DNA of 39,244 bases from Pseudomonadota bacterium. Lineage in GTDB: Bacteria; Bdellovibrionota_B; Oligoflexia; Oligoflexales; RGVZ01. Made by a program: the position numbers. The stretch's first letter is position 1; each line of letters starts with the position of its first letter. The DNA lies in the NCBI GenBank assembly GCA_041178085.1, contig JBEGVZ010000074.1, positions 1-39,244 on the forward strand. Reading direction: 5' to 3'. Positions 21,001 through 27,000 of this stretch are shown in pieces.

Positions 21001-24000
21001 ACTGATTTGGGTTCAGTGCGATATAAAGCGTCTTCCCGGCTTCAACGGCTGTTCCGATGGCCGCCATGCCAGTTCCGATAGCGGTTGCACCGGCAACAAT
21101 TGCGGCGGGGGGAGCCGCAGGCAACATCAAGATGGCGCCCACCGTCACACCGACCGCGACACCACCAGTGACTAGACAAGCGACTCCATAGTTGTACCAT
21201 GAGTCTGCTCCGCCCAAGGTGCATGTGCTGACACTCTGGCCGACGTTTGAAACCATCTCTCCAATCGACGCCAATGCGTTAGCGGGCAGTTTTATGAACC
21301 CGTCGGCGAAATGATAGACGCCCTGTCCAGCCGTGCTTATTAGGCCGTAGTTGAAGGCTTCTGGCTCTGCACTCAAACCTGTTGCCGAGGCAGGTCTTTC
21401 ACATTTCTTATAGGAGCCGGACAGAATCCCACTGGGTGCCCCGTCGCAGTAATAGTTGCAGCCGGTAGTGTATATCCAGCCAGTCCTCATGCAATTTGCC
21501 TGCGCCTCAAGGCACGCTGCCATTGACGGGAACTGGTTTTTGTATCCGCAGGCCTGGTTGGCTTCGCTAACTGGGTCCGGCGGCATGGATTGAACGGCCG
21601 TCGCCAAGCCCAATGCATCTTTGGGTGCGTTTCCTTTCTTTGACGATTTCGGATTACCTGCAAGGTCGGCTGGCAAATTTTCCCCGCGATCTGCGAAAAC
21701 CAATTCCCCGGATTCGCCGGTACGCAGAAAACCAAGAAAGGGTATGCATTGCGGATCCCTTTGGAAGCTTGGCGGGACGCTGGACAGTGCCTCAGCACGA
21801 CATGTTCCGGAGCCGGAGGAAACCACCCTGCTGTCCGGAATCTCCAGAACTTCACCAGCATTGGTAACGGCATAAAGGGTGCACATCACAGGATTCGTCG
21901 CTAGATCTGCCAACGGGCCGAAAACACAGCCCACGACCCGGGTACCTTTGACTTGGGATGCGAGCTTTGGAACGTTCACTTTTCGGAACTTGATGTCATC
22001 CGAATCGGTGACAATATTTTCTCCCGGTGGTCGGGGGGCATTCCCAGTCGATTCGAGCGGTTTGTTCGAACTCCCTGCAACGATCACTTTCCGAAAGCCA
22101 CAGGACGACGCGATGCTCGCGATCAAGAATGCCAACGTGATGTGAGTTAATGTCGCATTGCGAGTCTCGTAACGCATGATCGAATCTCCCGGGTAAGCGT
22201 CCGAGGAGAAGTTCGGTCGAGGGGGCAGGAACTTTATCCATCTTGGAAGGGGTTGTTGTTTGTTTCGAAATTTCGAGGGGTTATGTCTCGATGATTTCTT
22301 CACCATAGCGTTGGTGTTTTTATGGTCAAAAACAACCCGGAGGCGCGCCGCCATGAACCTCGATGTTGTCGGTCCCTAAAGACAATCATCGAAGCTTAAA
22401 TCGGGATGAGCTTTGGCGTCCCGATTAGCGGAACGCCGCAATTCCCGTGATGTTCTCGCCGATCACCAGACGGTGGATATCTTCCGTGCCCTCGTATGTA
22501 TTGACCGTCTCGAGGTTCATCATGTGCCGGATCACCGGGTACTCGTCGATGATGCCGTTGCCACCCAGCATGTCGCGTGCGTCGCGGGCGACGTCGAGCG
22601 CCATGCGGCAGTTGTTCATCTTGCCGAGCGACACTTGGTGAGGGTGGAGCGTGCCTTTTTCCTTGATGCGTCCCATTTGGAGGACGAGGAGCTGCGCTTT
22701 CGTGATCTCTTGAACCATCTTCACCAGCTTTGCCTGCGCCAATTGATTTCCGGCAAGAGGCTTGCCGTCAAAAATTGTGCGGCTTTTGGCGTAGTTGAGG
22801 GCTGTGTGGTAGCAGGCGTTGGCGGCGCCGATCACGCCCCAGGCAATGCCGTAACGGGCCTGGGTAAGGCAGCTGAGTGGTCCGCGCAGGCTTTCGACAC
22901 CTGGCAGAATGTTTTCTTCTGGAACGACACAGTCTTGGAAATGCAGTTCGGAAGTTGTGCTGACGCGCAGCGAGAACTTGCCCTTCATCGTGGTGGTTGT
23001 AAATCCAGGTGTGCCTTTTTCGACGATGAAGCCGCGCACTTTTCCGTCCAGCTTTGCCCACACGACCGCGATGTCAGCGATGCAGCCGTTGGTGATCCAC
23101 ATCTTGTTGCCGTTGAGCTTGTAGCCACCGGGCACTTTTTCTGCCTTGGTATTCATCGAGCCCGGGTTGGATCCCGCGTCTGGTTCGGTCAGGCCGAAGC
23201 AACCGATAAGATGGCCCGTCGCCAGTTTCGGCAGGTATTTATCTTTCTGCTTCTCTGAACCGTAGGTGTAGATCGGGTACATGACCAGCGATCCCTGGAC
23301 GGAGCAGAAGGAGCGGATTCCTGAATCGCCGCGCTCGAGTTCCTGCATGACGAGGCCGTAGGCAACCTGGCCAAGGCCTGGGCAGCCGTAACCTTTGATG
23401 GTTGAACCCAGCAGGCCGAGCTCGCCAAACATGGGAATGAGTTCCATGGGGAACTTTTCGTCCCGGTTAGCCTTCATCATGAGGGGTTCTACACGCTCGT
23501 CCACGAAGTTGCGGACCGATTGGCGGACGAGGAGTTCCTCTTCCGTGAGAAGGCTGTCGATGTTCATGTAGTTCAGGGATTCGTAGGCTGCCATGAGCGG
23601 GCTCCTTTTCGGGCCATTTTTGCCCTCTTTTTGTTGCTCGTCTGGGACCGCCCGGAGTAGTGTGCAGGGCGCATCAGAGCGAGGATTCCGCATGTTTAAT
23701 CGAGCCGAGGTCATTGATCAAAACTTTTCTCGCTTCGTCCGCGAGGGAAAACTGCCGGCTGAAAGGTCTTCAACCGGGCTTGCACAATCGGGCTTGCGCC
23801 CGGCGGATCTGATGGACCTGTTCGAAAGCCAGATGATCAGCCGGCACCTGGACCTGATTGCCCGGGTCCTGAAAAACGAGAACCTTTGCTACTACACCAT
23901 TGGCAGTTCCGGGCACGAAGGCAACGCTGCTCTGGGGAAGGTTTTCCGGCTGACGGACATGGCTTTCCTGCACTACCGGAGCGGCGGTTTCATGATCCAG

Positions 24001-27000
24001 CGGGCCAAGCAAGTGCCCGGAACCACTCCTGTTTATGACACGATGCTGTCGTTTTTTGCGTCCACCGAGGAACCCATTGCCGGCGGGCGCCACAAGGTGT
24101 TCGGCAGCCTGCCCCTTCTTGTTCCGCCCCAGACCAGTACGATTGCCTCACATTTGCCCAAGGCGGTGGGGGCTGCCCTTTCGATCCATCGCGCGCACGC
24201 GATGGGAATCGAATCTGTCATGCCGGCCGACGCCGTGGTGGATTGCACCTTTGGTGACGCTTCCGCCAACCACTCAACCGCCATAGGGGCAATCAACATG
24301 GCCTCGTGGGTGGGCTACCAGAACATCCCGCTTCCCCTTGTTTTTACCTGTGAAGACAATGGCATAGGTATTTCTGTTGCGACACCGGACCAATGGGTGG
24401 AACGCAACTTCTCGGGCCGTCCAGCAATCAAATACTACGCGGCCGATGGCCTTAGCCTGCTAGATACCTACAAAGTGGGAGAGGAAGCGGTCCGCTACGC
24501 CCGGGAACGGCGCAAGCCCGTATTCCTTCATGTCAAGACTGTACGCTTGATGGGTCACGCCGGATCCGACATGGAGAACTCCTACCGTTCCTTTCCGCAG
24601 ATCGAGGAAGTCGAGTTCCAGGATCCTCTGCTCCATTCGGCCAGGCTGGTGCTCGAGAATGGACTCGCCTCTCCGGAAGAGCTGGTCAACATGTACGAGC
24701 AAGTGCGGGAGCGGGTGCGCCACGTTGCAGCGGCAGCCATGGAGCGTCCACAGCTCTCCGACCCGGCGGAAGTCCGCTCGACCATCACGGCTTGCGTACA
24801 CAAGCGCAAGGCTCCGCCAATTCCATCCGAAGCTGACCGCCAAGCGGCATTCGGTGGGTCTGACTGGGCCAAGACGAAAATCCCACTGCACATGGCCAAG
24901 CTGATCAACCTCGGTCTGCATGACATCTTGTTGCGTTACAAAAACACAGTGATTTTTGGCGAGGATGTGGCGCAAAAGGGCGGCGTTTACAACGTCACGG
25001 ATGGCCTGTTTAAAAAATTCGGTGCGAAGCGTGTATTCAACTCCCTGCTCGATGAGCAGTCGATCCTGGGCACGGGGATTGGCATGGCCCACAACGGATT
25101 TGTCCCGATCCCGGAAATCCAATTTCTGGCCTACTTTCACAACGCCGAAGATCAGATCCGCGGCGAAGCCGCAACGTTGCCGTTTTTCTCGCAGGGCCAG
25201 TTCACCAATCCAATGGTGCTGCGCATCGCTGGACTTGCTTACCAGAAGGGCTTCGGCGGGCACTTCCACAACGATAACTCGCTGGCAGTGCTGCGCGACA
25301 TTCCGGGCATCATCATCGCCGTGCCTTCCACGGGCGCTGACGCCGTCAAAATGATGCGTAGTTGTGTGCGCGAAGCATACGAGAACGGGCGGGTTGTGGT
25401 GTTCATCGAGCCGATTGCTCTGTACATGACGCGCGACCTGAACGTAGAAGGCGATAAAGTGTGGTGTGCTGAATACCCCGCTCCGGAAGACGAAATTCCG
25501 GTGGGAGAGTTTGGCGTCCATCGCTCCGGCGCGGCCGGCGAGGTGGCCGATTTAACGATCTTGACCTACGGCAACGGCTACTATTACTCGCGCCAGGCGA
25601 GTGAGGTGCTGGTCAAAGAGCACGGCAAGAAGGTCAAGGTGATTGACTTGCGATGGATTGCGCCCATCGACATGGACAAGGTGGCGAAGGAAATCGGTTC
25701 TTCGCGGCGGGTCCTTGTCGTCGAAGAGTGTCGCAAGACAGGCTCACTGAGTGAGTATCTGGTCAGCGCTCTGGTCGAACGCATGGACCCATTGCCCCGG
25801 ATCAAGGTGGTCGCAGCTGACGATTGCTTCATTCCACTCGGGCGCGCGGCCGCGGCTGGCCTGCCTAAAAAAGAGGAAATCCTTGCCGGTGCCCTGGAGC
25901 TTCTGCGCGATCACTCGAAGGCTCCCGCACGCAAGCAAGTGGAGACAGTATGACCAAAAAGAACCGCATTGTTGTCATCTGTCCAGGGCGTGGTTCTTAC
26001 ACGAGTGAGACCCTTGGCTACTTGAAGCAGTGTCGCGATAATCCTGTCGTTGCTGATTTTCTTGCTGATATTGACCAGCGTCGCGCCCAACTTGGCGAGC
26101 CGACCATCTCTGAACTGGACAACGCAACGAACTTCAGTCCAAGCCGCCACACGCGTGGCGAAAACGCTTCGACTTTGATCTATGCGTGCTCGTTTGCGGA
26201 CTTTGCTTCGATAGACCTTGAGAAAAACGAGATCGTTGCCATCACCGGTAATTCGATGGGCTGGTATCTGGCCCTTGGATTTGCCGGGAGCCTTGACTGG
26301 GCTGGCGCATTTGAATTGATCAACACCATGGGATCGATGATGAAGGACAAGATCATCGGTGGTCAGTTGATTTATCCGGTGGTTGATGGAGATTGGCGTT
26401 TTTCACCTGAATTGCAACAGACTGTATCCCGCGCGATTGACGATGCACGTGCCGCAGGCGGCCAGGTCCATCCTTCAATTCATCTTGGCGGCTATGCGGT
26501 CATTGGTGGCGACAGTGTGGGTTTGAATTACTTGATGAAAAACCTGCCAAAGCTGGAGCATTACCCCCTTCAACTCATCAACCACGCAGCATTTCACACG
26601 CCGCTGTTGCGTGAAACTTCCGAACGTGCTTTTGCGTCGATTCCCGGATCGATCTTCCACCGGCCACGCGTCCCGATGATCGATGGTCGCGGTCAGATCT
26701 GGCAGCCGTGGAGCACGGATGTTAATGACTTGTATGATTACACGCTTGGTCACCAGGTTCACGAAATCTACGACTTCACACGCGCAGTCACGGTTGCCTT
26801 GAAAGAATTCGCCCCTGATCAGCTGTACCTTCTTGGTCCAGGCAATAGCCTTGGGGGTGCGATCGGTCAGGTGCTTGTGGCCAACCAGTGGCAAGGCATA
26901 AAGAGCAAAGCCGACTTCTCTGCGGTTCAGAAAAGCCGGCCTTTTTTGGTTTCGATGGGCCTTCGGAATTCTTCCAGGACGCCCTGATGCCGTGTTCTCA

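What a model noticed while it worked through the whole genome (the two positions that open the first line are those of the whole stretch)
22425..26987. E2-free 2-oxoacid dehydrogenase: fused E1 plus a FabD-like transacylase beside glutaryl-CoA dehydrogenase
g01449 (fused alpha-beta E1 of the PDH/BCKDH type), g01450 (345 aa, no Pfam row, FabD fold) and glutaryl-CoA dehydrogenase g01448 form a conserved unit in many phyla. It is best read as a bacterial 2-oxoadipate to glutaryl-CoA enzyme in which a serine transacylase stands where E2 normally stands.
Evidence so far: 80 best of 95 loci around E1 homologs (Bdellovibrionota, Marinimicrobia, Alphaproteobacteria, Legionella, Planctomycetota, others): GCDH in 60, g01450 homolog in 59, no E2 or E3 match in any at E<=1e-8. 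An aminotransferase or ALDH sits next to it in some (L350, L358, L360). g01450 model pLDDT 93, best matches all FabD/MCAT (3k89 E 3e-17; calls 141, 148). In 18 homologs the nucleophile motif GNSMG (S102) and H216 are invariant, the malonyl-binding Arg column is an invariant Met127, and R14 is nearly invariant. The genome has separate PDH (C59), OGDH (C65), a second fused E1 (C107) and a true FabD (C57), so the usual roles are filled. g01450 is in 23 of 131 class genomes. Searches 119, 122, 12 [...]
(Added by a program. Inside this text positions count along the whole contig: contig position 1 is position 1 of the stretch shown here. "Call 12" and the like, gene names such as g00115 and contig names such as C1 are that model's own, and its searches are not shown. 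The text may have been shortened before it was handed on; [...] marks where a part breaks off. The agent that wrote the report below was given it as the finding of a first reader that could run no searches.)

Follow-up and report, generated by a model that had tools for sequence, protein, structure and literature searches.

The report
Bacterial 2-oxoadipate E1 with docked transacylase
This bacterium carries an uncharacterised thiamine enzyme, with an acyl-transfer partner predicted to dock on it, that probably converts a breakdown product of lysine and tryptophan into glutaryl-CoA, a step known from animals.

Summary
The three genes are real. GCDH is divergent from a fused alpha-beta E1 (E1x), which overlaps a FabD-fold acyltransferase (ATx) that keeps Ser102/His216 and lacks the malonyl Arg. 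Around ATx homologs E1x is adjacent in 79 of 80 loci and GCDH in 60; none of 180 loci holds a lipoyl domain, E2 or GcvH. Lysine-route operons and near exclusion with HglS (1 of 17 against 36 of 69 genomes; kin not independent) point to 2-oxoadipate. Binding is predicted (score 0.93, best control 0.17), an in-frame fusion exists, and interface Thr111 is kept in 85 of 88 ATx-linked E1x and 0 of 27 ATx-less ones. But 'E2-free' is too strong: 24 to 25 of 27 sampled gammaproteobacterial E1x genomes show no ATx, the tree needs five changes, and 26 of 27 ATx-less genomes hold SucB. Best reading: E1x acylates a borrowed lipoyl arm and docked ATx moves glutaryl to CoA, needed most where SucB is missing (Marinimicrobia). 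No activity is shown. Ten literature searches found no description. The scan noted this module before in at least 11 other genomes.

The parts
22425..23594 (-). Glutaryl-CoA dehydrogenase (decarboxylating type), 389 aa
   Evidence: Best solved relatives are glutaryl-CoA dehydrogenases (1sir, E 2.5e-137; next non-GCDH-named classes far lower), E87, R94 and E368 align to identical residues of the 1siq chain.
23595..23691 (.). 97-base gap between the divergent GCDH and E1 starts; presumed shared promoter region
   Evidence: Sequence directly; no promoter scan was run.
23692..25953 (+). E1x: fused alpha-beta ThDP-dependent E1, 753 aa; residue numbers in this report count from Phe at 23695 (add 1 for Met)
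   Evidence: E1_dh, Transket_pyr, Transketolase_C; relatives are PDH/BCKDH alpha and beta chains; invariant pocket motif at 130-135, H288, E454, H525; predicted ATx interface 35-44, 108-114, 325-350.
25950..26987 (+). ATx: FabD-fold serine acyltransferase without the malonyl-binding Arg, 345 aa, overlapping the E1 stop
   Evidence: Model and fold search; M127 aligns to the FabD Arg column; S102, H216, R14 conservation; predicted interface 245-260, 275-289.

Best explanation
E1x is a bacterial 2-oxoadipate-decarboxylating E1 of the PDH/BCKDH (alpha-beta) lineage. Steps: (1) ThDP-dependent decarboxylation of 2-oxoadipate (chemistry from family knowledge; substrate inferred from neighbours). (2) Reductive glutarylation of a lipoyl arm borrowed from a housekeeping E2 or GcvH (inferred; no carrier is encoded at the locus). 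(3) ATx, docked by its back face on the E1 alpha domain (predicted), takes glutaryl on Ser102 and passes it to CoA, with Arg14 as the likely partner of the far carboxylate (inferred). (4) A housekeeping E3 reoxidises the arm; GCDH makes crotonyl-CoA (family knowledge). ATx stands in for the catalytic domain of E2, not for the whole E2. It can be lost where SucB can handle glutaryl and is kept where SucB is missing.
For: Substrate: GCDH beside ATx in 60 of 80 loci, 52 of 59 with enough flank, and beside E1x in 19 of 27 loci found through E1x. Saccharopine/lysine dehydrogenase-family gene plus piperideine-6-carboxylate dehydrogenase upstream in L071 and convergent in L122; that dehydrogenase upstream in L065 and near in L081, L183, L216. 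Aminotransferase-ACAD-E1x-ATx in a Ruegeria plasmid. Homocitrate-synthase-like gene after ATx in 9 of 80 loci. HglS, the known alternative 2-oxoadipate enzyme, in 1 of 17 E1x genomes against 36 of 69 others; 0 of 6 against 2 of 3 within genus g2 (Fisher p 6e-4, kin not independent). Binding: score 0.93, best of 3 controls 0.17; the mark was reached by 116 of 157 solved and 2 of 215 mismatched pairs; runs agree in at least 98% of contacts, partner pLDDT at least 92. Of 328 conserved E1x columns only G109 and T111 are kept in near and far ATx-linked proteins and lost in ATx-less ones, both in that interface; T111 55 of 56, 30 of 32, 0 of 27. In-frame fusion P0272. Lipoyl use: H288 and H525 present in all 27 gamma E1x; SucB over cut-off in 26 of 27 ATx-less genomes and in 0 of 19 Marinimicrobia E1x genomes, where ATx follows E1x in 7 of 8 found through E1x.
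Against: No activity was measured. GCDH is common anyway (74 of 86) and was not seen in any of 80 mostly short loci of the distant subfamily. DUF1338 sits near the unit in 6 of 80 loci, so the exclusion is not general. The fusion has a different pocket motif. Interface columns also vary in held-out ATx-linked E1x (0.71 against 0.92). Shewanella and the own genome (SucB at C65) keep ATx, so SucB alone does not explain loss. One Marinimicrobia genome (G656) has E1x, no SucB over cut-off and no ATx found; a transposase-like gene follows E1x near the contig end. The complex left out E1 residues 661-752 and the second E1 chain.
Confidence: 0.52

Rival explanations
1. ATx is an editing hydrolase: E1x glutarylates borrowed lipoyl arms, and ATx frees arms that the host E2 cannot unload, releasing glutarate, as FabD-fold acyl hydrolases of trans-AT polyketide synthases do.
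For: PksD acyl hydrolase is among the fold matches (8avz, TM 0.71). Loss of the Arg is also typical of such hydrolases (recalled). ATx is dispensable in many lineages.
Against: It discards a thioester that the neighbouring GCDH needs; no CoA-transferase recurred among the neighbour clusters annotated (not every neighbour was annotated).
Confidence: 0.15
2. E1x acts on another 2-oxo acid, or only decarboxylates to an aldehyde, and GCDH is a downstream neighbour of a wider amino-acid pathway.
For: No standard 2-oxoadipate source in the own genus, family f5 or G091; no GCDH in the distant subfamily loci; altered pocket in the fusion.
Against: The same pocket motif is kept across bacterial subfamilies, including copies inside lysine-route operons; near exclusion with HglS.
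Confidence: 0.15
3. One reading: E1x and ATx alone make glutaryl-CoA, with no lipoyl carrier; an unknown oxidant (oxygen, a flavoprotein) turns the enamine into acyl-ThDP, and Ser102 takes the acyl group directly.
For: No lipoyl domain, E2 core or GcvH in 180 loci (1.94 Mb) while controls hit; tight predicted docking and a fusion; G001 has a single E2 and no SucA-sized E1.
Against: No conserved redox group in ATx; E1x persists without ATx and no replacement gene recurs beside it; the docking face includes R6 and V96 at the strand ends away from S102 (inferred; no coordinates seen); every genome tested has an E2.
Confidence: 0.1
4. ATx loads glutaryl on an acyl carrier protein for biosynthesis, for instance as primer for pimelate and biotin.
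For: FabD fold; starter-unit transacylase clusters among Atlas look-alikes; glutaryl primes BioZ (PMC7645780, passages).
Against: No ACP, ketosynthase or biotin gene recurred among annotated neighbours; that paper says glutaryl-ACP has not been observed in nature; GCDH coupling is catabolic.
Confidence: 0.06

Closest known systems
Human 2-oxoadipate dehydrogenase: DHTKD1 with shared DLST (E2o) and DLD (E3) (bioRxiv 10.1101/2020.01.20.912931, passages)
   Same: Proposed reaction, place upstream of GCDH, and borrowing of lipoyl and E3 parts from another complex.
   Different: DHTKD1 is of the OGDH lineage (14% identity in the fold match; no OGDH-type chain among 38 sequence hits). E1x is of the alpha-beta PDH/BCKDH lineage and carries its own FabD-fold partner.
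Alpha2beta2 E1 of PDH and BCKDH complexes (1w85, 1um9, 1dtw)
   Same: Domains, ThDP motif, His aligned to BCKDH His291-alpha, beta-chain fold TM 0.91.
   Different: Below all NCBIfam cut-offs; basic pocket loop; no E2 or E3 at the locus; ATx docks on the alpha domain in the model.
FabD / malonyl-CoA:ACP transacylase, and FabD-fold acyl hydrolase PksD
   Same: Fold (TM about 0.7), Ser-His pair.
   Different: Met in the malonyl Arg column, Arg14 in the first loop, 16-20% identity; a true FabD lies on C57.
HglS (DUF1338) route of 2-oxoadipate breakdown (bioRxiv 10.1101/450254 and 10.1101/2020.01.30.927905, passages)
   Same: Same proposed substrate; nearly complementary distribution in this phylum.
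   Different: Fe(II) oxygenase giving D-2-hydroxyglutarate; unrelated protein.

Membership tests
Alpha-beta E1 (PDH/BCKDH type) | E1_dh plus transketolase pyrimidine and C-terminal domains with ThDP motif | tested here: met
   motif positions.
Alpha-beta E1 (PDH/BCKDH type) | Two histidines of reductive acylation | tested here: met
   H288 aligns to His291 of 1dtw_A; H525 aligns to the beta-chain His of 3duf_B; their role is taken from the title of 1olx; equivalence to human His146-beta is recalled.
Canonical 2-oxoacid dehydrogenase complex | Own lipoyl-bearing E2 and E3 encoded with the E1 | tested here: not met
   0 of 180 loci with lipoyl, E2 core or GcvH; two weak E3-like hits in L065 are a reductase of another type.
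Canonical 2-oxoacid dehydrogenase complex | Lipoyl-dependent oxidative decarboxylation | not testable with these tools
   Needs an assay.
DHTKD1 / OGDH-type E1 | Sequence membership of the homodimeric OGDH lineage | tested here: not met
   No such chain among 38 hits; 14% identity by fold.
FabD (malonyl transacylase) | FabD fold with Ser-His pair | tested here: met
FabD (malonyl transacylase) | Malonyl-binding Arg and family score | tested here: not met
   M127 in the Arg column (the role of that Arg is recalled); 25.4 bits against 260.9.
Trans-AT acyl hydrolase (PksD type) | FabD fold without the Arg, acting on ACPs of a polyketide synthase | tested here: inconclusive
   Fold match rank 43; no PKS seen among annotated neighbours; activity untested.
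Glutaryl-CoA dehydrogenase (decarboxylating) | Closest to solved GCDH with E87, R94 and the catalytic Glu kept | tested here: met
   the roles of these residues are recalled.

The most novel reading that the evidence does not exclude
A widespread, uncharacterised 2-oxoacid dehydrogenase architecture in which an alpha-beta E1 specific for 2-oxoadipate carries a docked serine transacylase of the FabD fold in place of the E2 catalytic core, using a borrowed lipoyl arm; it supplies the 2-oxoadipate to glutaryl-CoA step in bacteria that lack SucB. The still bolder lipoyl-free form is not excluded (about 0.1).
Probability: 0.5. Interest if true: 0.82.

Novelty: new variant of a known kind. Interest (0 to 1): 0.7.

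Why it matters
[quoted passage not shown] This unit names candidate genes for it, in culturable hosts such as Ruegeria and Shewanella. It would also be a 2-oxoacid dehydrogenase whose acyl transfer uses a Ser-acyl FabD-fold enzyme instead of the usual E2 core, and it would correct thousands of proteins now labelled ACP S-malonyltransferase (6644 hits among 8000 scored).

Tried and rejected
L049 looked like a 1028-aa fusion but is a long reading frame over separate genes. P0121 (1082 aa) is judged a frameshift artefact: the end of its beta part reads out of frame (by eye). A redox cysteine in ATx was rejected: C80 is 81 of 81 in close homologs but 30 of 55 in diverse ones. DUF1338 near the unit in Alteromonadales was discounted: in L027 it lies beside astD. 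ArgR, MetH, ThyX and BirA-like neighbours were treated as lineage context. Tryptophan route as the source in this phylum: 3-HAO in 0 of 17, though G001 and G092 hold kynurenine catabolic clusters. The prediction that G495 (T111 kept, E1x at contig edge) holds ATx was not confirmed: only a FabD-level hit. A metagenome scan with P0159 found nothing. The careful ATx tree did not finish; the E1x tree is FastTree only, with long basal branches, 19 of the 56 A2 rows and 12 of 32 distant rows. The window's aminotransferase is only 27% like the Ruegeria operon one and is not counted. Literature: searches (listings only) showed no paper on this unit; passages read in PMC5653290, PMC9007349 (and its 4 supplementary files, no hit), PMC4334477, PMC3904984, PMC7645780 and three bioRxiv preprints. 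Subscription journals, bioRxiv supplements and fitness databases could not be seen and may hold data. No expression data were sought.
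Full report
Observation. The window holds GCDH (22425-23594, minus), a fused alpha-beta E1 (E1x, 23692-25953) and a 345-aa protein (ATx, 25950-26987) whose start overlaps the E1 stop. GCDH's nearest solved relatives are glutaryl-CoA dehydrogenases (E 2.5e-137). E1x has the three E1 domains and its relatives are PDH and BCKDH alpha and beta chains. ATx has no Pfam family, folds with pLDDT 96.3 and matches FabD (3k89, E 5.7e-19, TM 0.72). 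In 55 diverse homologs S102 and H216 are invariant, R14 is in 54, and the FabD Arg column is Met in 45 and never Arg. The genome has its own PDH, OGDH, a second fused E1, an E3-E2 pair on C37 with no E1 seen in the 12 kb fetched, GcvH and a true FabD. E1x residue numbers count from Phe at 23695.

The unit around ATx. They come from records titled Bdellovibrionales, Marinimicrobia, Alteromonadales and Alphaproteobacteria. In 80 metagenome loci of a more distant subfamily, E1x ends within 200 bases of ATx in 48 of the 54 with at least 700 bases upstream, and GCDH was seen in none; many of these contigs are short. Profiles built from six E2 proteins, plus GcvH and E3 queries, found no lipoyl domain, E2 core or GcvH in 180 loci (1.94 Mb) while the control loci hit; two weak E3-like hits in L065 are another reductase.

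Substrate. L071 reads saccharopine/lysine dehydrogenase-family gene, piperideine-6-carboxylate dehydrogenase, E1x, ATx; L065 has that dehydrogenase (over cut-off) upstream; L076 has the first gene after ATx; L122 has both converging on the pair. A Ruegeria plasmid has LysR, PLP aminotransferase, acyl-CoA dehydrogenase (52% to the window's GCDH), E1x, ATx. Nine loci, Marinimicrobia by title where named, put a homocitrate-synthase-like gene after ATx (405.9 bits, cut-off 413.55). All these enzymes lie on routes that meet at 2-oxoadipate (established pathway knowledge). In 86 genomes of the phylum, HglS occurs in 1 of 17 with E1x and 36 of 69 without (p 6e-4, overstated because kin are not independent). 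Against: the piperideine dehydrogenase is not enriched (8 of 17 against 31 of 69) and was not found in the own genome, which has a saccharopine-dehydrogenase-family gene on C95 and only a sub-threshold aldehyde dehydrogenase; 3-HAO is in 0 of 17; GCDH is in 17 of 17 but also 74 of 86 overall.

Binding. E1x 1-660 with ATx 4-338 scored 0.93, best of 3 controls 0.17; the mark was reached by 116 of 157 solved complexes and 2 of 215 mismatched pairs (counts hold only roughly with my alignments); runs agree in at least 98% of contacts, partner pLDDT at least 92. The model supports binding and does not show it. I know of no solved complex of this kind (recalled). The best pairs join E1x T111 and Y114 to ATx K285 and E286; E286 is 81 of 81 conserved. 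As a separate check, of 328 columns conserved in ATx-linked E1x only G109 and T111 are kept in both near and distant ATx-linked proteins and lost in ATx-less ones; T111 is in 55 of 56, 30 of 32 and 0 of 27, and in about 79% of 14 held-out ATx-linked ones. Interface columns match the consensus at 0.34 in ATx-less proteins (other columns 0.84), but also at only 0.71 (0.92) in held-out and 0.62 (0.79) in distant ATx-linked ones. P0272 (1128 aa, 5 members, 2 contigs) is an in-frame E1x-ATx fusion with a presequence-like start, 55% identical to the partial fusion P0234; a eukaryotic origin is my guess from the start and divergence.

ATx is optional. All 13 ATx genomes in the phylum have E1x, but 4 of 17 E1x genomes show no ATx; in three, other genes follow an intact E1x. 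Of 151 alphaproteobacterial genomes 5 have E1x and one of these has no ATx. Of 300 scored gammaproteobacterial genomes (one more was not scored) 27 have E1x; only 2 have a clear ATx, a third has a weak 1e-21 hit, two end at contig edges, and 19 have GCDH beside E1x. All 27 keep the pocket motif, H288 and H525, and no replacement gene recurs among the 44 flanking frames scanned. On a FastTree of 78 rows the ATx-less label needs five changes, all forced by starred branches; ATx-linked rows lie at the base, on long branches, so an ancestral pair with repeated loss is likely but not proven. SucB passes its cut-off in 26 of 27 ATx-less genomes (the miss is 91% complete) and in 0 of 19 Marinimicrobia E1x genomes. 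There ATx follows E1x in 7 of 8 found through E1x; the eighth keeps T111, has a transposase-like gene after E1x near a contig end, and no ATx was found. G001, a chromosome-level assembly of unstated completeness, has one E2, GcvH, a ferredoxin-type 2-oxoacid oxidoreductase and no SucA-sized E1.

Mechanism. An E1 leaves the substrate at the aldehyde level and needs an oxidant (family knowledge). ATx has no cofactor or conserved cysteine, and its docking face includes R6 and V96 at the strand ends away from S102 (inferred, no coordinates seen), so a mobile carrier is likely. The simplest fit is a borrowed lipoyl arm, ATx as the glutaryl-to-CoA transacylase, and SucB as a substitute where ATx is lost. 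Shown: gene anatomy, conservation, distribution. Predicted: docking. Inferred: substrate, carrier, direction of transfer.

Comparison and novelty. It works like the animal DHTKD1 system (passages) but is not a member of that lineage; ATx is not a FabD. [quoted passage not shown] Ten searches listed no description; subscription papers are not covered. The scan's own notes hold this module in at least 11 other genomes, three of the eight shown also calling ATx an add-on; these are AI notes, not support. Verdict: real, uncharacterised, a new variant of the 2-oxoacid dehydrogenase kind; interest 0.7.

Noticed in passing
window 28727-32881 (-): 1384-aa protein with a signal-like start, one Big_5 Ig-like match and a long unassigned C-terminal part.
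   Followed up: no
window 20174-22354 (-) and 26998-28674 (-): Two long frames (726 and 558 aa) flanking the unit with no Pfam family; the first has an Ala/Gly-rich hydrophobic middle.
   Followed up: no
window 16706-20171 (+): FabG, FabH-like and epimerase-family genes 2 kb from GCDH; not seen as recurring neighbours in related loci.
   Followed up: partly
G000 C43 97395-98534 (L099): A second GCDH-like gene, 56% identical, downstream of a lipoyl synthase-like gene.
   Followed up: no
G000 C37 (L096 4786-7608) and C96 (L097 4769-5782): An E3-E2 pair with no E1 seen in the stretch fetched, and a 338-aa protein with only an E2 catalytic domain; either could serve C107 or E1x.
   Followed up: partly
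L048 9002-10126 and eight more loci: Homocitrate-synthase-like gene between ATx and GCDH; with E1x it could run 2-oxoglutarate through 2-oxoadipate to acetyl-CoA in cells without SucA, or feed lysine synthesis.
   Followed up: partly
P0272 and P0234: In-frame E1x-ATx fusions with a divergent pocket motif and a presequence-like start.
   Followed up: partly
L131, L132, L137: ATx with no E1x hit in 5.5 to 7 kb upstream.
   Followed up: no
L115 (Shewanella aestuarii plasmid): The three-gene unit lies between nitrate reductase genes and a transposase, a sign that it moves as a block.
   Followed up: no
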